Positions 1 through 8,215 of a stretch of DNA of 8,403 nt are shown piece after piece. Position numbers and translations under genes: made by a program. The notes beneath the pieces are model-generated. The model did no database searches, was not told the origin of the DNA, and saw nothing but the letters and a program-made list of their open reading frames with translations. The stretch lies in IMG/VR virus record IMGVR_UViG_2802429224_000013. The stretch is one strand, 5' to 3'. This DNA comes from a virus. Taxonomy: Duplodnaviria; Heunggongvirae; Uroviricota; Caudoviricetes. Within the stretch, counting starts at the first letter, position 1. Each line of letters starts with the position of its first letter.

Positions 1-488
1 AAAACAGCCATGTGTAACGCTCTGACCGTTACAAAAAGAGAAAGCGCCCCGTTGCCGGAGCGCCTTTGTGAACGAATTACCTGTAGCACCGCGATGTTTG
101 CTATATGGGTGAATTTTAGCGACAAGTTCGTTCAATGTGAAGGCGCTGATCACCGTTACTACAGCACGCCAGAAATGCAGAATATTTTGCTGCAAAATGC
201 CGTTGGCCACGCCGTCCGGAAAGCAAAAAATTTTGCTGGTGGCGCGACCGATACGATTTTTTCTGGTAGCCCGGTGCTGATCAACTTAGCTTGGATTTAT
301 GTGCAACATTGCAACTATTCCGACTTTAAGCTGAATGTGACTTTACCTATATCTTTAGAGGTGTGGTCGCGCTTGACCTCTATTTCACCATTTTGTAGCC
401 CTGCTACAAAAAAATATAAAAGTGTCAATGCTGCTGCAATCAGTAACCATTTTCTAGGAATATACATTCTTGATTTTACCCTTAATCA

Positions 489-662
489 TCAACCTTTTGG
501 CTCGATGCCCCGCTGTTGTAATTCTTTGCGGAGTACTCGTTTAATCCAAGTAGCTAATGAGGTGTCGCCGTCTGCTTTGGCTGCCTCCTCAAGTTGCGCT
601 CTAAATTCTTCTGGTAGTCGCATTTGGTATGGTGGCGATCGTTTCTCTAATGGTGTTGACAT
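489..662 (-). CDS. Ribbon-helix-helix (Arc/MetJ/CopG-like) DNA-binding protein, 57 aa; candidate repressor of the divergent operon
   Basis: Hand translation of the minus strand gives MSTPLEKRSPPYQMRLPEEFRAQLEEAAKADGDTSLATWIKRVLRKELQQRGIEPKG, with a beta-strand-like YQMRLP followed by two helices, the classic RHH layout. ATG at 662-660, stop as TCA at 489-491 on the plus strand, SD-like AAGGG 8 nt upstream. Not in the ORF track because it is shorter than the track cutoff. Confidence 0.6.
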   Translation of the reverse strand: MSTPLEKRSPPYQMRLPEEFRAQLEEAAKADGDTSLATWIKRVLRKELQQRGIEPKG

Positions 663-702
663 GGTAATTACCCTTAATTACTATAGTTACATGGTAATTA
701 CC
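656..702. promoter_or_regulatory. Divergent promoter/operator region with two copies of ACATGGTAATTACC spaced exactly 30 bp
   Basis: The 14-mer occurs at 659-672 and 689-702; its core GGTAATTACC is a perfect 10-bp palindrome. The first copy overlaps the start codon and RBS of the RHH gene. A consensus TTGACA sits at 656-661, with TACTAT 17 bp downstream (679-684) as a possible -10 for the plus-strand operon. Confidence 0.45.
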
Positions 703-792
703 ATTGTACTTACCATTACGCAAAAAACAACGCCCCGCAGTGCTGGAACACATGCAGGGCGTCTAACCAAACCGTTAAACGAGGTAACGATT

Positions 793-1161
793 ATGGCTGG
801 AACACAGCATACCCAAACTCACCCTAAATTTATATACACCTTCCTGGCGGTGCACCGTGATTGCATCGCTGACGGTAAAAATACTGTTCATGTAGCCGCC
901 GATACGCTGGTTGATGCCTGCGAGATGCTCAATGACATGGGCTATATCTCGGCAACATGGAAAGGGCGTGAAGAAAACACGTTGTTTATTCAGAAATGCG
1001 AAAACAATTTTATCTGGCGTTTTATCGCCCTGAGTACGGCACAACCGCGCGTGATTCACATCGAGGCCACCAGCGAACAGGAAGCACGCCAGCAATCTCC
1101 TGATGGCTGCGTGATGGTATTCGCTGCCCGTATTCGCCAGGAGGTGCATCATGTGCAATAA
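793..1161 (+). CDS. Hypothetical protein, 122 aa; first gene of the coupled plus-strand operon
   Basis: ATG at 793 preceded by GAGG at 781-784 (8-nt spacing). It is the 3' part of the 10..1161 track ORF. The stop at 1159-1161 overlaps the next gene's start within CAGGAGGTGCATCATGTGCAATAA. No family recognised. Confidence 0.6.
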   Translation: MAGTQHTQTHPKFIYTFLAVHRDCIADGKNTVHVAADTLVDACEMLNDMGYISATWKGREENTLFIQKCENNFIWRFIALSTAQPRVIHIEATSEQEARQQSPDGCVMVFAARIRQEVHHVQ

Positions 1162-1369
1162 AAACACGCCGGACGCAGCCGCCGAAGCCATCAAAACGCT
1201 AATGCACGCGCTGATTGATATTAATTACACGGCAGGGCTGGCAAAGAATAAAAAAGATGCGGTATTCACATCGAGCGTACTGGAATCTATTCAGATTATT
1301 GCTGAGCATGCACTGAATAAATCTCAAAATATTCTGATTGCTGATGTGCAGGAGGTGCACCATGCATAA
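1151..1369 (+). CDS. Hypothetical small protein, 72 aa
   Basis: ATG at 1151 with a perfect AGGAGG at 1139-1144 (6-nt spacing), embedded in the 3' end of the upstream gene. Ends QEVHHA, mirroring the upstream gene's QEVHHVQ end (see duplication finding). Confidence 0.45.
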   Translation: MCNKNTPDAAAEAIKTLMHALIDINYTAGLAKNKKDAVFTSSVLESIQIIAEHALNKSQNILIADVQEVHHA

Positions 1370-1730
1370 CCTGTCAATTTCTGACCTTAACAGCATTCAG
1401 TTTGACGAGAAATTTACCGGGCAGTTGCTGGTCAATGTGGAGAACGGGCGCATAGTGCGTAATTACCACCTGCCGGATGGTGCAATTGCCGGAAGCGTTG
1501 AAGCATTGCTGGAACTGGCGGAACGTGCGCGACTGATTAAGCCGTCAACGTGCCATCACGATGATGATCTGCATTTTACCGGGTGTATGGTGAGTCACTA
1601 CGAAAACGGCGTTGAAGTATCCTGCGAACGTCTGCGTGATGATTGCTGTTTCGGCACACTGCCGGAATTTATCGAATTGCTGACCAGTTGCGGTTATCAG
1701 GTCATTCAGGGGGGGGTGAATCATGGGTAA
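1362..1730 (+). CDS. Hypothetical protein, 122 aa
   Basis: ATG at 1362 with GGAGGTG upstream; the start overlaps the stop of the previous gene (ATGCATAA). The stop at 1728-1730 overlaps the next start (ATGGGTAA). No family recognised. Confidence 0.6.
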   Translation: MHNLSISDLNSIQFDEKFTGQLLVNVENGRIVRNYHLPDGAIAGSVEALLELAERARLIKPSTCHHDDDLHFTGCMVSHYENGVEVSCERLRDDCCFGTLPEFIELLTSCGYQVIQGGVNHG

Positions 1731-1923
1731 TAAGCCAGCAACAATGACAATTACCCTGAATGTGCCAGAGGATTTCACCGGACGCATACTGGTTTACCTG
1801 GATAAAGGGAAAGTGAAATCACAATGCCGGCTGCGAAATAATGAAATTGTAAGTACGGCAGAAGGCTTTTCTGAACTCTGTATTAGTGCAGGAATAAAAC
1901 CGGAACTGCTGACAGGAAAATAA
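1723..1923 (+). CDS. Hypothetical small protein, 66 aa
   Basis: ATG at 1723 preceded by a G-rich SD (GGGGGGGGTGA); translationally coupled to the gene upstream. Confidence 0.5.
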   Translation: MGNKPATMTITLNVPEDFTGRILVYLDKGKVKSQCRLRNNEIVSTAEGFSELCISAGIKPELLTGK

Positions 1924-1927
1924 AACC

Positions 1928-2218
1928 ATGAAAAAGAAAAATTCTGGCTTTACTGCCAGCGGTCTCTCTCGGCCTGAAATCAGACACGGAGATATTTACC
2001 GCGACACCAGACGTGGGGGACGAGTGGTTATTCGTCACGTTACGCCAGGCAATATCACCTACCGCCGTGAGGCTTACGAATATGACTGCGTAATGCCGCG
2101 CCGTCAGTTTGAGCGTGATTTTATTCTGGTTGAAAACAAACAACAGGCAGTGGCAAGACGTGCAGCCACGAATATTAAAAAAATCCGGGCAATGTTGGTT
2201 GCGGGAGGTAAGAAGTGA
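1928..2218 (+). CDS. Hypothetical basic protein, 96 aa
   Basis: ATG at 1928 with AGGAAA 8 nt upstream. The stop TGA at 2216-2218 overlaps the GTG start of the helicase gene (GTGA). Confidence 0.55.
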   Translation: MKKKNSGFTASGLSRPEIRHGDIYRDTRRGGRVVIRHVTPGNITYRREAYEYDCVMPRRQFERDFILVENKQQAVARRAATNIKKIRAMLVAGGKK

Positions 2219-3627
2219 AAAACGCACCGAATTTAAAATATCAGCCGAAGGATAAATTCACCGAGGTAATCATTTTTGCCGGGACGGACGCTTACTCCCA
2301 TGCTCAACACTGGATTGAAAGCGAAGGACGAAAACACGGCGATAACGTACCACCTGTTTACCTGGGGCCGAAGCAACTGGCAGACCTGGCGAATATCCGC
2401 ATTATTGACGAGAAACGCCGCTTTGCGCGTGTCTATCTCGCGGGGGAGATCGAACCAATCCAGATCAATGCTATCGCTGAAAAACTGGCGCTGGCTGGCG
2501 TACAGGAGGCGAAATTATACAAAGGCATCACCGACCGGGAGCCGGAGAACTGGCGCGATTACCTGCAACGAATCCGCGAACAGCCAGAGCACGAAGAAAT
2601 GCTTACTGACGAGCAATACAGCCAGCGAAAAACCACACTACCAATGAGCATTGGATCGGAAGGATATGATTCACAGCTTAGCTATGTAGTTAAGGGCGTG
2701 ATTCCGGCTAATTCGCTATGTAGCACATACGGTGCGAGCGGTTCTTATAAGTCGTTCCTTGCGTGTTCGTGGGCATGTCATGTTGCTACCGGTATCCCGT
2801 GGGGAGGTCGCAGGGTTGTACATGGTGCGGTTATGTATGTCGTTGGTGAGGGCGGGATCGGTGTTCCTCGTCGTATCAAGGCATGGGAACTGGTGAACAG
2901 TGAGCAGGTGAAAAATCTGTACCTGGTAAATCGTCCAATTTTTCCGGCCGCACCGAGTGATGTTGATGAAATGGTTATTGCTGCCCGACAGGTTGAGCTG
3001 GAAACGGGTAAACCTGTACGCATGATTATTCTGGATACTCTGGCGCGTTGCTTTGGTGGCAGCGATGAAAATGATGCGCGGGATATGGGGGCATTTGTCC
3101 ATGGATGTGACGAACTGAAACGGCGTACAGGCGCTACAGTGCTGGTAATTCACCATTCCGGCAAGGATGAAACAAAGGGTGCGCGCGGTTCCAGTGCGTT
3201 TCGTGCAGCACTGGATGCAGAGTACCGGATACGCCGTGAAGGTGCAGGCAGTGAAGCCCTGGTTATCGCATGTACCAAGATGAAGGATGCGGAGGAACTG
3301 AAAGAAATGGCTTGCGATTTGCGCGAGGTTGAGCTTTTCAAGGATGAAGGCGGGGAGTTAATCACGTCGTTGGTGCTGGAGGATAAACCCCGTCCGCCAG
3401 TTGAACTGGAGCGCATCGAGTACGTTGCTAACAAGACAGAGAATCACGCCGCGCTATGGGGCTGTATCCGTTCACGCACGCAACGCGGAGATAAATGCAC
3501 TATCCCGTTGTTGCGCGATGACATGAAAAAGCTGGGGTATGAGATGAAAAACTTCCGACGCTGGCTGTACAAGCTGGAAGGTGACGGCGTAATCGCTATT
3601 GACGATGATGACGTGCGCCCACTGTAA
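2215..3627 (+). CDS. RepA-like / DnaB-like P-loop ATPase (AAA_25-type), candidate replication initiator-helicase, 470 aa
   Basis: GTG start at 2215 with GGGAGG at 2203-2208. Recognisable motifs: P-loop-like YGASGSYKSF, Walker-B-like RMIILDTLARCFGG, and a VLVIHHSGKD motif typical of RepA/RecA-fold helicases. Roughly 150 aa of N-terminal and 100 aa of C-terminal extension may carry origin-binding function. Confidence 0.85.
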   Translation: MKNAPNLKYQPKDKFTEVIIFAGTDAYSHAQHWIESEGRKHGDNVPPVYLGPKQLADLANIRIIDEKRRFARVYLAGEIEPIQINAIAEKLALAGVQEAKLYKGITDREPENWRDYLQRIREQPEHEEMLTDEQYSQRKTTLPMSIGSEGYDSQLSYVVKGVIPANSLCSTYGASGSYKSFLACSWACHVATGIPWGGRRVVHGAVMYVVGEGGIGVPRRIKAWELVNSEQVKNLYLVNRPIFPAAPSDVDEMVIAARQVELETGKPVRMIILDTLARCFGGSDENDARDMGAFVHGCDELKRRTGATVLVIHHSGKDETKGARGSSAFRAALDAEYRIRREGAGSEALVIACTKMKDAEELKEMACDLREVELFKDEGGELITSLVLEDKPRPPVELERIEYVANKTENHAALWGCIRSRTQRGDKCTIPLLRDDMKKLGYEMKNFRRWLYKLEGDGVIAIDDDDVRPL

Positions 3628-4038: not shown

Positions 4039-4812
4039 ATGAAAACAGAACGTTACATACCTCAGGGTATGACTTACATAGAGCGTGAAGAACTGAAAAG
4101 TTTTGCGACATCATGTGGACTACGCGGCGATATTCAGAGCCTTACCAGAACTCTGATAATGATTGCGCACTGGATGAGGCAGGGTAAGCCAGTGAGCTTC
4201 ACAGAATACGCCAGCCAGTGGACAGAGGCACAGCGCGAACGGGACGACGGTAATCACTCAACGCCTGAAATGGCGAAGCAATGGCCTTTCAGTGGCAAAC
4301 GATGCATTTATCCCAGGTGCTCCGATTACTACCCATACGGAACGGAAAGAGAACATCAGGATGACGAAACGGAAATTAAACACGCAGTAACGGTAATTCT
4401 TGCCAAATACCCGTTTTTTAACCGCAATGGTCTTGTTCGGTATAGCCGTGACAAGCCATGGGAGCACCCGCTTGATTATGTCTGTTTTATGGAGGAGGCA
4501 AAAAGCTGTTTGCGCTGGATAAGGGAGAACAATCTTACCGACTGCAAAATTGCATCATTCCCCGGTAAAAATCCGACATCCTACGGCCTGAAACATTGTG
4601 TTGAACGGGCGAATCAAATAAGAGCAAAGGCAAACGGAAAACCCACGGAGCCGACGTATATCACAAACGGTGCTCTAATTGCCGCAATGGTCGCGGCTGG
4701 TTATCAGATAAAGCCTGAAGGAAGGATGAATTGCCGATTCAATATTTCGCGTAAGCAGCTTAAGAGTGTATTGAGCGGGGAATCTTACAAATCAGGAGAG
4801 TGGACGATATAA
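4039..4812 (+). CDS. Hypothetical protein, 257 aa, no family recognised; cysteine-containing, first gene of an accessory operon
   Basis: ORF track 4030..4812. The preferred start is the ATG at 4039 (AGGAA 8 nt upstream); the ATG at 4030 is the alternative. It follows a long AT-rich, promoter-like region and is followed at 12-24 nt by the FinO-like gene. Several Cys pairs (KRCIYPRCS, CFMEEAKSC) are present but no catalytic motif is evident. Confidence 0.7.
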   Translation: MKTERYIPQGMTYIEREELKSFATSCGLRGDIQSLTRTLIMIAHWMRQGKPVSFTEYASQWTEAQRERDDGNHSTPEMAKQWPFSGKRCIYPRCSDYYPYGTEREHQDDETEIKHAVTVILAKYPFFNRNGLVRYSRDKPWEHPLDYVCFMEEAKSCLRWIRENNLTDCKIASFPGKNPTSYGLKHCVERANQIRAKANGKPTEPTYITNGALIAAMVAAGYQIKPEGRMNCRFNISRKQLKSVLSGESYKSGEWTI

Positions 4813-4835
4813 CAGAAACATCTATGGGGCAAAGC

Positions 4836-5366
4836 ATGACTAAGCTGACCATTAACAGAAAACCAAAAGGCATTTACGGCACGCCGCAGAAAACGACGCA
4901 GGCGGCGCAAGAGCAGGATAAAACCACGTCGGCGCATAAAGTGATGCCCGGTAACCAGAAAGCGCAGCAGAAGCCCACAGGGGCGACACCGTGGCGGCAT
5001 ATGACCAAACGCCAGCGCAAAAACCGCAGGCGCGTTAACCGCCTCACTGAGTTGTGGCCTGACTTATTCAGCCGGGAAGCACCGAAGCCGCTTAAGGTGG
5101 GGATATTCGACGACCTGATGCAGGATCTCGCCGTCAGGGGGCTGGCATTCGGGCCAGGGGCATTGCGTGCGACGCTGGCATCTTATGCGCAGTGTCCGCG
5201 CTATTACCGCGCCTTAATGGCTGGTGGGGTACGCTACGACCTGAAAGGCCAGCCGTGCGGCGAGGTGACACCACAGGAACAACAGGACGCAGAAACGCGG
5301 CTGGTGGCGCTGAATGAGAAGCGCAAACGTCAGCGCCGGGCAGCAAAGGAGAAAACAGGCGCATGA
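4836..5366 (+). CDS. ProQ/FinO-family RNA-binding protein (RNA chaperone-like)
   Basis: The segment PLKVGIFDDLMQDLAVRGLAFGPGALRATLASYAQCPRYYRALMAGGVRYDLKGQPCGEVTPQEQQDAETRL matches the conserved ProQ/FinO N-terminal domain pattern (PLKIGIF..DL, LR.AL..Y..S.RY, R.DL.G.PCGE), and the C-terminus is basic. Start is uncertain between ATG 4824, ATG 4836 (GGGG 6 nt upstream, preferred) and the track's GTG 4800. Confidence 0.85.
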   Translation: MTKLTINRKPKGIYGTPQKTTQAAQEQDKTTSAHKVMPGNQKAQQKPTGATPWRHMTKRQRKNRRRVNRLTELWPDLFSREAPKPLKVGIFDDLMQDLAVRGLAFGPGALRATLASYAQCPRYYRALMAGGVRYDLKGQPCGEVTPQEQQDAETRLVALNEKRKRQRRAAKEKTGA

Positions 5367-5650: not shown

Positions 5651-5654
5651 CGGA

Positions 5655-5680
5655 GGCCGGGATTTTTCCCGGCTTTTTTG
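5655..5680 (+). terminator. Rho-independent terminator closing the 257-aa/FinO/PerC operon
   Basis: A perfect 7-bp GC-rich stem (GCCGGGA, loop TTTT, TCCCGGC) is followed by TTTTTT at 5674-5679, starting 5 nt after the PerC stop. Confidence 0.7.
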
Positions 5681-5693
5681 TGCCAGTAAAAAA

Positions 5694-5726
5694 CCCGCAG
5701 CCAGAAGTGTTGCGGGCTTTGTTTTT
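5694..5726. terminator. Second hairpin, possibly a bidirectional terminator
   Basis: Stem CCCGCA (5694-5699) pairs with TGCGGG (5711-5716) around an 11-nt loop. It is flanked by an A-tract upstream and a T-rich run downstream, so it could terminate on either strand. Confidence 0.4.
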
Positions 5727-5851
5727 CAGGTGATTGAAGTCAATGGGAAGAACGCGATCATCATGCGTTATTGTTTCATAAATTGCAACGATGTAGATCG
5801 TTATTTTAGTTTGTGCAATCATAACCATTGTTTTGTTCAGGAGATATGACT

Positions 5852-6025
5852 ATGAGAAAAGCCAGCGTGAAACCCGTTTTACTCGCTCGTGATCAGATTG
5901 AAGCATTACAGCGCATCCAGGACGAGGAACGCCGCAATTCTCCGCTGGGGATTGCTCCGAGCATTCATGAGGTCGCCCGGCGTTTAATGCAGCGGGCGCT
6001 TTATCCCGTAGAACGTCCGGCCTGA
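5852..6025 (+). CDS. Small hypothetical protein, 57 aa; possibly a small DNA-binding (RHH-like) regulator
   Basis: ATG at 5852 with GGAG 8 nt upstream (track ORF 5828..6025). KPVLLARDQIEALQRIQDEERRN...SIHEVARRLMQRAL has a strand-helix-helix look. First gene after the terminators. Confidence 0.5.
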   Translation: MRKASVKPVLLARDQIEALQRIQDEERRNSPLGIAPSIHEVARRLMQRALYPVERPA

Positions 6026-7923: not shown

Positions 7924-8215
7924 AAAAAGTGTCAAGTTGAGCAGCTTGCCAGGTTGACACTTTGCACTCTGAACGCGAAAAAGTGTCAACCTCGCTGTAA
8001 ACCCCGCCGTTACTGGCTTTGCGCCAGATTTACCACGTCAAAAAGCCGAAAAAAATCGCGAAAAGTGTCAAGTTGCCATGCTTAGAAATGCTAAGGTTTG
8101 ATAAGGTTTGATAAGGTTTTTCGCGAAAAAGTGTCAAGTGTGTCAACCTGCGATGTTAAGATTTGTTAAGGTCTCAAGCCGGAAAGTGTCAACCAGCCCC
8201 TAAGATTTCCTAAGG
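7924..8215. repeat. Array of GTGTCAA(G/C) motifs in both orientations, interleaved with TAAGG-type repeats; candidate packaging (cos/pac-like) or multi-operator site
   Basis: GTGTCAAG/C at 7929-7936, 7983-7990, 8065-8072, 8131-8138, 8140-8147 and 8186-8193, with an inverted copy GTTGACAC at 7953-7960; three share the longer CGCGAAAAAGTGTCAA context. Three tandem TAAGGTTTGA units at 8092-8120. TAAGATTTGTTAAGG (8157-8171) and TAAGATTTCCTAAGG (8201-8215) are near-identical 15-mers. A GC-rich core with a small hairpin (CTGGC tttgc GCCAG) lies at 7996-8032. Confidence 0.8.

What the first reader, a model, noticed from the sequence alone, without database searches (positions are those of the whole stretch)
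489..792. Candidate genetic switch: RHH protein with twin palindromic operators over a consensus-like promoter
Two identical 14-mers, ACATGGTAATTACC, are spaced exactly 30 bp (three helical turns) in the divergent region. One overlaps the RHH gene's start codon and RBS, and both overlap a TTGACA-17-TACTAT promoter aimed at the replication operon. This is the architecture expected for a master repressor keeping the element quiescent, although known SaPI Stl and PICI regulators are not RHH proteins as far as I recall.
Basis: partly seen in the sequence, partly recalled or inferred. Interest (0 to 1): 0.55.

Follow-up and report, generated by a model that had tools for sequence, protein, structure and literature searches.

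The report
Ribbon-helix-helix repressor switch in satellite
A tiny uncharacterised DNA-binding protein and its two matching binding sites sit on the promoter of the replication genes of an E. coli phage satellite, which makes it the best candidate yet for the "missing" repressor of Gram-negative phage-inducible islands.

Summary
ACATGGTAATTACC occurs at 659-672 and 689-702. It lies over a TTGACA-17-TACTAT promoter aimed at the Icd-like/helicase operon, and the 57-aa ORF (489-662, minus strand) starts inside the -35 hexamer.

Comparison with about 70 related loci from many Gammaproteobacteria supports the repressor/operator reading:
- The -35 hexamer, a -10 at 17-18 bp, one palindrome in the spacer and one at the start site keep their places while the flanks diverge.
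- Four types of protein N-terminus/beta-strand each go with their own palindrome (TGGTA..TACCA, TTGTAATTACAA, GGTATATACC, GTGTAATTACAC).
- Palindrome type follows the small protein, not the genes on either side.
- The gene is under purifying selection and has no conserved toxin partner.

I add two parts. The first is a conserved leftward promoter facing the rightward one across the second palindrome. The second is a 77-nt antisense RNA, related to SymR, that covers the ribosome site of the first operon gene.

Binding, repression and any role as master repressor are inferred, not shown. Published work on these islands names only the activator AlpA and calls a repressor "unclear". I file this as a new member of a known kind (a Mnt/Arc-style switch). 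Interest is moderate.

The parts
489..662 (-). Gene for a 57-aa ribbon-helix-helix (RHH) protein, the proposed repressor
   Evidence: ORF. PHROG Arc-like repressor, E 4.9e-7. Pfam Arc 16.5 bits (cut-off 20.4) and NCBIfam YlcI_YnfO_N 20.1 bits (cut-off 30), both below threshold. AF2 model: extended N-terminus plus helices 18-31 and 36-50, pLDDT 76. Foldseek top hits are nearly all RHH proteins, though all have E>1. dN/dS 0.09-0.13. 93 homologous clusters across Gammaproteobacteria.
656..684 (+). Rightward promoter P_R: -35 TTGACA (656-661), 17-bp spacer, -10 TACTAT (679-684). Expected start about 691.
   Evidence: In relatives TTGACA is invariant even where the RHH start codon changes (ATG, GTG, TTG), and a -10 is always found at 17-18 bp.
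659..674 (.). Operator O1 (ACATGGTAATTACC; palindrome core 663-672). It lies in the P_R spacer, over the RHH start codon and its Shine-Dalgarno region.
   Evidence: Its centre is fixed at +12 from the first T of TTGACA in relatives.
689..704 (.). Operator O2 (ACATGGTAATTACCAT; perfect 14-bp palindrome 691-704). It lies over the expected start sites of both P_R and P_L.
   Evidence: In relatives the outer TGGTA/TACCA bases are kept while the central 4 bp vary.
703..730 (-). Leftward promoter P_L for the RHH gene: -35 TTGTTT (730-725), 16-bp spacer, -10 TACAAT (708-703). Expected start about 696, so it faces P_R.
   Evidence: Found by my own scan. The same TTG(T/C)TT / TA(C/A/T)AAT pair at 16-18 bp sits at the same offset (47-48 nt from TTGACA) in most class-1 loci, 8-10 of 12 matches. 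It was below the threshold of the tool's scan.
706..716 (.). Possible weak third site (GTACTTACCAT)
   Evidence: inverted repeats I3 and I4, 91% complementary. Not conserved in the group-B E. coli loci, so doubtful.
722..798 (-). SymR-like antisense RNA of about 77 nt. Its 5' stem-loop exposes the anti-Shine-Dalgarno CCUC. The terminator hairpin is at 762-730 and the U-tail at 729-722. It is fully complementary to the SD (781-784) and ATG (793) of the Icd-like gene.
   Evidence: The hairpin is more stable on the minus strand in 42 of 50 distinct loci, p 7e-8. 21 pairs, 95.8% paired, 14 pairs with compensatory changes, 0 of 500 shuffles reach the observed value. Rfam SymR sub-threshold hits at the orthologous place. 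A model built from these RNAs hits K-12 symR, E 5e-6.
806..811 (-). -10 element of the antisense RNA promoter (TATGCT on the minus strand), inside codons 5-7 of the Icd-like gene
   Evidence: A at +13 in 51 of 54 loci, T at +17 in 53 of 54 (a third codon position, while the amino acid varies) and A at +18 in 51 of 54. The symR -10 lies at the same offset in symE (PMC1891008). No good -35 in this window.
793..3627 (+). Target operon: Icd-like protein (793-1161), three small ORFs, DUF4222 (1928-2218), AAA_25 RepA-type helicase (2215-3627)
   Evidence: The same order is annotated in E. coli relatives.
41..467 (-). Rest of the leftward transcription unit: a 50-aa hydrophobic ORF (467-315), a conserved unannotated stretch and a minus-strand terminator (66-41)
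   Evidence: The 50-aa ORF is found only in close E. coli relatives. Not part of the conserved module.

Best explanation
The 57-aa protein is an RHH transcriptional repressor. It probably binds each palindrome as a pair of dimers, one dimer per TGGTA/TACCA half-site. Bound at O1 (between -35 and -10) and O2 (over the start site), it would keep RNA polymerase off the strong rightward promoter that drives the Icd-like/replication operon of this integrative phage satellite.

Its own gene is read leftwards from a weaker promoter that faces P_R across O2, so the protein should also limit its own synthesis. The two promoters should compete for the same DNA, as at P22 Pmnt/Pant. When P_R fires it would silence the repressor gene, giving a two-state switch.

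A SymR-like antisense RNA made from inside the first operon gene would add a second lock on translation of the Icd-like protein.

Shown here: the sequence parts, their conservation, protein/operator co-variation, RNA structure co-variation and purifying selection. Inferred: binding, repression, autoregulation, promoter competition, stoichiometry and how helper phage or AlpA flips the switch.
For: - Repeat and promoter are real and non-random.
- In about 45 distinct loci from Escherichia, Salmonella-like enterics, Xenorhabdus, Photorhabdus, Yersinia, Pectobacterium, Pantoea, Gilliamella, Pasteurellaceae and Oceanisphaera, TTGACA overlaps the RHH start codon. One palindrome is centred at +12 and a second at +42 to +46, while the sequence between and around them diverges.
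- Four protein classes map one-to-one to four palindrome types: KRSP[QP][YF]QMRL, K[TS]DQYQ[IL]RL and relatives, KRSPQFPMRL, and RRGNPPFQFRL.
- Palindrome type does not follow the rightward first gene. L005 and L065 share it but differ in RHH and operator, and class 1 is joined to at least 10 different first genes. It does not follow the leftward neighbours either.
- RHH assignment: PHROG Arc-like, E 4.9e-7. The model has two helices after an extended N-terminus. Foldseek hits are AmrZ, Arc, CopG, NikR, ParD and MazE9.
- dN/dS is about 0.1.
- A leftward promoter sits at a fixed offset.
- Islands with the same leader but another repressor carry a YlcI/YnfO-type RHH gene in the same slot, with other repeats.
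- Antisense RNA.
Against: - No experiment of any kind supports binding or repression.
- Curated family thresholds are not reached (Pfam Arc, NCBIfam YlcI_YnfO_N).
- No Foldseek match is statistically significant, and the PDB sequence search gave only spurious designed repeats plus AmrZ at E 0.94.
- The monomer model cannot show the beta-sheet dimer.
- P_L has a poor -35, which doubles as the U-tail of the antisense RNA terminator. Its conservation could be due to that role alone.
- The antisense promoter has no -35 in this window.
- For related islands the literature shows dependence on the activator AlpA, so this repressor may be a secondary control rather than the master one.
- Only about 9% of complete E. 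coli genomes carry this RHH.
Confidence: 0.75

Rival explanations
1. The RHH protein is the antitoxin of a type II toxin-antitoxin pair. The downstream 50-aa membrane-like ORF (467-315) would be the toxin, and the palindromes would be only the pair's autoregulatory operator.
For: Many RHH proteins are antitoxins, and some database names for homologues say 'HicB family'. A small hydrophobic ORF follows on the same strand. O1 and O2 overlap the gene's own promoter and start.
Against: There is no conserved downstream partner in 60 loci. Several loci have no ORF of 30 aa or more within 200 nt, and those present cluster only within genera. The 50-aa ORF is seen only in near-identical E. coli islands. 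At 57 aa the protein has no room for a toxin-binding tail. The constant partner is the divergent promoter of the replication operon.
Confidence: 0.05
2. The protein binds the palindromes but is only an autoregulator or a fine-tuner of early expression. Quiescence and induction are governed by AlpA and by the antisense RNA, so deleting the RHH gene would not induce the island.
For: AlpA is required for induction of EcCICFT073 and EcCIEDL933, and a repressor is called unclear (PMC6092414; 10.1101/2022.09.08.507074). Many islands lack this particular RHH. The antisense RNA is more widespread than the RHH.
Against: O1 sits in the spacer of a near-consensus promoter and O2 on its start site, which is the classic geometry for strong repression. 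Islands lacking this RHH carry another RHH-type gene in the same slot, so the slot itself is conserved.
Confidence: 0.2
3. The palindromes are bound by some other factor (AlpA, a Bro/Ant-family protein of the island, a host or helper protein), and the small ORF is unrelated to them.
For: No binding data exist. The island encodes other DNA-binding proteins upstream: an AlpA-like HTH and Rha/AntA family proteins.
Against: Palindrome type co-varies with the RHH class while the upstream Bro-zone genes and the downstream operon genes are shuffled independently. On plasmid L008 the module occurs without int/alpA yet still has the RHH and its matching palindromes.
Confidence: 0.04

Closest known systems
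Mnt and Arc repressors of the phage P22 immI region (background knowledge; Arc structures 1par and 1bdv appear)
   Same: Small RHH repressors with palindromic operators placed on a strong promoter. Like mnt, the gene is read divergently from the promoter it represses, with overlapping competing promoters. An antisense RNA (sar in P22) acts on the first transcript as a second layer.
   Different: There is no significant sequence similarity beyond a weak Arc-profile match. There are two separate 14-bp palindromes about 30 bp apart instead of one 17-21-bp operator. The protein lacks Mnt's C-terminal tetramerisation tail (57 aa in total). The target is a satellite replication operon, not an antirepressor gene.
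Stl/Rpr master repressors of Gram-positive PICIs (SaPIs)
   Same: The gene is divergent from the operon that carries the replication functions of a phage satellite, and repression is expected to keep the island silent.
   Different: Stl proteins are larger HTH proteins encoded on the same strand as int (PMC6092414). Here the protein is an RHH, opposite in strand to int/alpA, and no helper-encoded antirepressor is known.
LexA / SymR control of symE in E. coli K-12 (PMC1891008)
   Same: A protein repressor at the promoter is combined with a 77-nt cis-antisense RNA that starts 5 nt inside the ORF, with its -10 at ATG+13 to +18. The RNA here is a detectable relative of SymR.
   Different: The transcriptional repressor is an island-encoded RHH, not LexA. 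The controlled gene is an Icd-like protein heading a replication operon, not the AbrB-fold SymE. Rfam's SymR threshold is not reached.
YlcI/YnfO family (NCBIfam NF041551), uncharacterised prophage proteins
   Same: Closest curated family. Members occupy the same slot, divergent from the Icd-like gene, in sister islands. The class-4 relatives of this protein are annotated with this name.
   Different: The window protein scores 20.1 bits against a cut-off of 30. No function for the family was found in the literature searched.
P4-type RNA immunity (CI/C4 RNA with seqA/isrK targets)
   Same: An RNA-based lock on the early/replication operon of a satellite, in the zone between the Bro genes and the replication genes (PMC10111431).
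   Different: There is no C4 or isrK match in this window. The RNA here is a cis-antisense of the translation start, not a trans-acting terminator inducer. One relative (L037) has both systems.

Membership tests
Ribbon-helix-helix (Arc/MetJ) superfamily | A domain of about 45 aa with an N-terminal beta-strand followed by two helices | tested here: inconclusive
   AF2 monomer: residues 1-17 extended, helices 18-31 and 36-50, pLDDT 76. 'RLPEEFR' aligns with the strand/helix-1 junction of AmrZ (37% identity over 38 aa, rmsd 1.4). Most Foldseek hits are RHH proteins, but all have E>1. PHROG Arc-like repressor, E 4.9e-7.
Ribbon-helix-helix (Arc/MetJ) superfamily | Dimer formed by an antiparallel beta-sheet that reads the major groove of repeated or palindromic sites | not testable with these tools
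   Only single chains could be modelled. The indirect support is operator co-variation with the N-terminus/strand.
Pfam Arc (PF03869) | Score at or above the gathering threshold (20.4 bits) | tested here: not met
   16.5 bits, E 0.0079, residues 9-32 only.
NCBIfam YlcI_YnfO_N (NF041551) | Score at or above the curated cut-off (30 bits) | tested here: not met
   20.1 bits, E 4.8e-4. Class-4 relatives are annotated as this family by PGAP.
PICI master repressor (Stl/Rpr type) | Gene divergent from the xis/replication operon and controlling it | tested here: inconclusive
   The divergent position and the operators on the operon promoter are met. Control itself is untested.
PICI master repressor (Stl/Rpr type) | HTH (cI-like) repressor on the same strand as int, relieved by a helper-phage protein | tested here: not met
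   The fold is RHH, not HTH. In relatives int and alpA are on the opposite strand. Relief by a helper protein is not testable here.
Type II toxin-antitoxin antitoxin | A conserved adjacent toxin gene in one operon | tested here: not met
   No conserved downstream or upstream partner in 60 loci.
Gram-negative PICI / cf-PICI-like satellite (the host element) | int and alpA, a Bro zone, a replication zone (primase/helicase) and a late zone, integrated at a fixed chromosomal site | tested here: inconclusive
   The window holds the end of a Bro-zone gene, the replication zone (Icd-like, DUF4222, AAA_25 helicase), ProQ/FinO, PerC, a DUF2213/protease-like protein and a terS-like HTH protein. int and alpA lie outside the window but are present in a 97%-identical island between abgR and smrA. 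Helper dependence is untested.
Rfam SymR (RF01809), for the antisense RNA | Score at or above the gathering threshold (61 bits) | tested here: not met
   26.2 bits in the window and 26.7-42.1 bits in relatives. However, the reciprocal model R1 hits K-12 symR at 33.6 bits, E 5e-6, over its full length. Length (77 nt), start (ATG+5) and -10 position are the same (PMC1891008).

The most novel reading that the evidence does not exclude
The RHH protein, the face-to-face promoters and the SymR-like antisense RNA together form the long-sought immunity module of Gram-negative phage-inducible islands. Exchangeable repressor/operator cassettes (at least four specificities, plus the YlcI/YnfO types) would define immunity groups. 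Helper phages would induce the island by neutralising the RHH or overrunning it with AlpA-dependent transcription from upstream. The chromosomal symE/symR locus would be a domesticated remnant of the same leader cassette.
Probability: 0.3. Interest if true: 0.7.

Novelty: new member of a known kind. Interest (0 to 1): 0.55.

Why it matters
The founding paper on Gram-negative PICIs states that a global repressor is unclear and that only the activator AlpA is known. A conserved, self-contained repressor/operator pair on the replication-operon promoter gives that question a concrete, cheap test: gel shifts, reporter fusions, and a deletion in an island with a known helper.

This RHH is present in about 9% of complete E. 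coli genomes, including O157:H7 islands that carry capsid genes. The four natural specificity classes are ready-made controls for operator-swap experiments and for asking whether satellites have immunity groups.

The gene is often left unannotated or overlapped by a wrong pseudogene call, so it is easy to miss in surveys.

The side finding could change how the type I toxin-antitoxin-like symE/symR locus is viewed. Relatives of SymR appear to guard the first gene of satellite replication operons. The leader-plus-Icd-like segment that includes this RNA matches about a quarter of complete E. coli genomes; the RNA model itself was run on only a handful of loci.

Tried and rejected
- **PDB sequence search** with the family profile gave only designed helical-repeat proteins, which are spurious matches to the amphipathic helices, plus AmrZ at E 0.94. 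It was not useful.
- **Toxin-antitoxin reading.** Rejected, because there is no conserved partner.
- **Partition-protein reading** (weak PHROG hits to 'partition protein ATPase' families at residues 8-32, E about 1e-3). Rejected: there are only two sites, both on a promoter, and no ParA-type gene nearby.
- **P4-type CI/C4 immunity RNA.** No hit in the window.
- **Hairpin 730-762 as a leader structure or terminator of the rightward transcript.** Rejected: it has no U-tail on the + strand, and its G.U pairs make it markedly more stable on the minus strand.
- **-35 for the antisense promoter.** None convincing in the window, although TTG-containing hexamers occur at 16-18 bp in many relatives.
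- **Helical phasing of the two operators as the key constraint.** Not supported, because spacing varies from 29 to 34 bp.
- **Literature searches** for RHH or YlcI/YnfO proteins in PICIs found nothing relevant.
- **Not checked:** whether the experimentally studied EcCICFT073 or EcCIEDL933 themselves carry the gene. I only showed that O157:H7 strains carry it, in an island with capsid, decoration and terS genes.

Full report
**1. What is in the sequence**

The two 14-mers ACATGGTAATTACC lie at 659-672 and 689-702. Each contains the perfect palindrome GGTAATTACC, and the second copy extends to the 14-bp palindrome ATGGTAATTACCAT at 691-704. The promoter scan reports TTGACA (656-661), a 17-bp spacer and TACTAT (679-684) on the + strand, 10 of 12 matches. 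The 57-aa ORF on the minus strand (489-662) starts with the ATG at 662-660, so its first two codons are written inside the -35 hexamer.

An exact 14-mer repeated within 60 bp arose in 1 of 1000 dinucleotide shuffles. A lone 14-bp palindrome is not rare, since 46% of shuffles contain one. The signal is therefore the pair and its position.

**2. What the element is**

The window is part of an integrative phage satellite of E. coli.
- To the right of the switch lie an Icd-like protein, small ORFs, DUF4222 and an AAA_25 RepA-type helicase (793-3627).
- Further right are a ProQ/FinO-domain protein, a PerC-family protein, a DUF2213/protease-like protein and a terS-like HTH protein.
- The first 17 bases are the end of a Rha/AntA-family gene.
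- A 97%-identical island lies between abgR and smrA with a tyrosine integrase and an AlpA-like HTH gene upstream.

This matches the zone order published for Gram-negative PICIs: Int/AlpA, Bro zone, replication zone, late zone (PMC10111431).

The 323-bp switch region is found at 80% coverage or more in 493 of 5426 complete E. coli genomes. These include O157:H7 islands that carry capsid, decoration and terS genes. In several records the small gene is not annotated at all. In O157:H7 it is overlapped by a doubtful pseudogene call on the other strand.

**3. Is the small ORF a real RHH protein?**

Homologues of 55-59 aa form 93 clusters in Enterobacterales, Pasteurellaceae, Orbaceae, Aeromonas and Oceanimonas/Oceanisphaera. 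Most are named 'hypothetical'; a few are named 'Arc family DNA-binding protein'. Against relatives, dN/dS is 0.09-0.13 where dS is not saturated. The O157:H7 copy is 98% identical in protein at about 86% DNA identity over the switch region.
- Profile matches point to the Arc/RHH world, but they are weak: PHROG Arc-like repressor E 4.9e-7, Pfam Arc 16.5 bits (cut-off 20.4), NCBIfam YlcI_YnfO_N 20.1 bits (cut-off 30).
- The AlphaFold model has an extended N-terminus and two helices (18-31, 36-50), as expected for one chain of an RHH dimer.
- Its Foldseek hits are almost all RHH proteins (AmrZ, Arc, CopG, NikR, ParD, MazE9, PutA), though none is significant for so small a domain.

I accept the RHH assignment as likely. 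Membership of any curated family is not met.

**4. Does it bind the palindromes?**

This cannot be shown here, but the comparative evidence is strong. I collected 9 E. coli loci and 60 loci from one genome per species, then lined up the regions upstream of the RHH gene.
- In about 45 distinct sequences TTGACA is invariant and overlaps the start codon, even where the start codon itself changes to GTG or TTG.
- A -10 follows at 17-18 bp.
- One palindrome is centred 12 bp after the first T of TTGACA, and a second is centred 29-34 bp further on. The sequence between and beyond them is free to change.
- Palindrome sequence falls into four types that match four types of N-terminal arm/beta-strand:

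| Protein N-terminus/strand | Palindrome |
|---|---|
| KRSP[QP][YF]QMRL | (A)TGGTA-NN(NN)-TACC(AT) |
| K[TS]DQYQ[IL]RL and relatives | TTGTAATTACAA |
| KRSPQFPMRL | GGTATATACC |
| RRGNPPFQFRL | GTGTAATTACAC |

- Within class 1 the outer TGGTA/TACCA bases are fixed while the central four bases vary (AATT, AATG, AACG, ACCG, AAGT). This argues for two half-site contacts per palindrome, that is a dimer of dimers, as in Arc.
- The operator type does not follow the genes on either side. Class 1 is joined to at least ten different first genes of the operon. L005 (class 1) and L065 (class 4) share the same first gene. The genes downstream of the RHH gene are unrelated between genera or absent.

The only constant partner of each palindrome type is its RHH type.

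**5. Extra anatomy found in the flagged interval**

(a) *A leftward promoter.* On the minus strand TTGTTT (730-725), a 16-bp spacer and TACAAT (708-703) abut O2. The same pair, TTG(T/C)TT and TA(C/A/T)AAT at 16-18 bp, sits at the same offset in most class-1 loci of other genera. Its expected start (about 696) lies 5 nt to the right of the expected P_R start (about 691). The two promoters therefore face each other, and their polymerase footprints overlap. O2 covers both starts. O1 lies in the P_R spacer and in the leader of the RHH mRNA.

(b) *An antisense RNA.* The hairpin at 730-762, which the scan flagged as a minus-strand terminator, is conserved with many compensatory changes. It is more stable on the minus strand in 42 of 50 distinct loci (mean -20.6 against -15.7 kcal/mol, p 7e-8), because its wobble pairs are G.U on that strand.
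- An alignment of 36 minus-strand sequences gives a two-hairpin structure: a 5' stem-loop with the anti-Shine-Dalgarno CCUC in the loop, then the terminator. It has 21 pairs, 95.8% paired cells and 14 pairs with double changes. No shuffle (0 of 500) reached the observed values, and the slid controls stayed below 48% paired.
- Inside the Icd-like gene, positions +13, +17 and +18 from the ATG are A, T and A in 51-53 of 54 loci. Meanwhile codon 6 encodes seven different amino acids, always with T in the third position. On the minus strand this reads TAnnnT, a -10 element that would start an RNA at ATG+5.
- Rfam's SymR model matches the same place over its full length but below threshold: 26 bits here and up to 42 bits (E 1e-4) in relatives.
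- A covariance model built from these RNAs finds the annotated symR of E. coli K-12 at E 5e-6.
- SymR is 77 nt, starts at ATG+5 of symE, and has its -10 at the same offset (PMC1891008).

The predicted RNA here (798 to about 722) has the same length. The leader-plus-Icd-like segment that includes this RNA gave megablast matches in 1362 of 5426 E. coli genomes, many of which lack this RHH. In the sister islands examined, the slot is filled by a YlcI/YnfO-family RHH gene with other repeats.

**6. Most likely mechanism**

RHH tetramers at O1 and O2 block the strong P_R, and through O2 they also limit P_L (autoregulation). Because P_R and P_L cannot be occupied together, firing of P_R should shut off the repressor gene, which gives two stable states. 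This is the logic described for P22 Pmnt/Pant, and the divergent gene position makes this protein Mnt-like rather than Arc-like (background knowledge). Leaky P_R transcripts would be neutralised by the antisense RNA pairing with the ribosome site of the Icd-like gene, a plausible need if that protein inhibits cell division, as its family name says.

How the switch is flipped is unknown. Related islands need AlpA, whose expression is turned on by the helper (PMC6092414; 10.1101/2022.09.08.507074). No strong + strand terminator lies between the Bro-zone gene and P_R. AlpA-driven transcription from upstream could therefore run over the RHH gene and the operators. An AlpA of Pseudomonas acts as an antiterminator (PMC7969949, abstract only). 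A helper-encoded antirepressor is the other option. Both are speculation.

**7. Comparison and verdict**

In how it works, this is a Mnt/Arc-type switch combined with a SymR-type antisense lock. In membership, the protein fails the curated thresholds of Arc and YlcI/YnfO. It is not an Stl-type PICI repressor, since it has a different fold and strand arrangement. It is not a toxin-antitoxin antitoxin either.

I found no paper describing an RHH repressor in Gram-negative PICIs, and the founding paper calls a repressor 'unclear'. I rate it a new member of a known kind. It has moderate interest because it makes an open question in satellite biology directly testable.

Confidence that the protein binds the palindromes and represses P_R is about 0.75. 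Confidence that it is the master repressor of the island is about 0.3-0.4.

Noticed in passing
window 722-811 (minus strand): A 77-nt SymR-like cis-antisense RNA covers the SD and start codon of the Icd-like gene, with strong structural co-variation and a -10 hidden in codons 5-7. A model built from it reciprocally hits E. coli K-12 symR. The leader-plus-Icd-like segment that includes it matches about a quarter of complete E. coli genomes, with or without this RHH.
   Followed up: yes
window 4800-5366: The island encodes a ProQ/FinO-domain protein (Pfam E 1.3e-23). Proteins of this family bind terminator hairpins of antisense RNAs, so it might be a chaperone for the SymR-like RNA. This is pure conjecture.
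   Followed up: no
window 8092-8140: A tandem repeat TAAGGTTTGA (about 2.8 copies, 8092-8119) runs into a 14-bp palindrome TTTTTCGCGAAAAA (8117-8130) and GTGTCAA repeats. This lies between the terS-like gene and the next ORF and could be a packaging or regulatory site.
   Followed up: no
window 5654-5723: Two terminator-like hairpins in tandem lie just after the PerC-family gene (a weak Rfam ncr1175 match, E 0.076, which is probably just the hairpins). They likely mark the boundary between the early and late transcription units.
   Followed up: no
window 5849-6025: A 58-aa ORF (MRKASVKPVLLARDQIEALQRIQ...SIHEVARRLMQRAL) looks by eye like a second RHH protein at the head of the late region. It has no Pfam or PHROG match.
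   Followed up: no
window 68-300; L070 2501-2786: A conserved unannotated stretch lies downstream of the RHH transcription unit and ends in a minus-strand terminator (66-41). It is shared with islands that carry a YlcI/YnfO gene instead, and it holds a 41-aa ORF (284-159, minus strand) conserved at 95% in L001 and L070. Function unknown.
   Followed up: partly
L003 8554-9170; L001 12193-12363: The RHH gene is intact but not annotated in these RefSeq records. In O157:H7 a pseudogene labelled 'Icd-like, incomplete' is drawn across it on the opposite strand.
   Followed up: partly
L008 3001-6306 (plasmid pPRO_A-1505-6W-A_2): A class-4 RHH with its own palindromes, the conserved leader and a short Icd-like-type ORF sits directly upstream of a WYL (BrxR-like) gene and a BREX operon on a plasmid, flanked by IS and Tn3 remnants. 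The module may have been reused to control a defence system.
   Followed up: no
L004 2997-4377; L009 2996-4733: Two repressor/leader cassettes occur in tandem: this RHH type followed by a truncated leader, then a YlcI/YnfO type with a full leader. This suggests cassette exchange by recombination at the conserved leader.
   Followed up: partly
L037 2507-2736 (Pasteurella testudinis): C4 antisense RNA and isrK (the P4-type immunity RNA and its target) are found above Rfam thresholds in the rightward operon, next to an RHH module. That island therefore combines both kinds of immunity.
   Followed up: no
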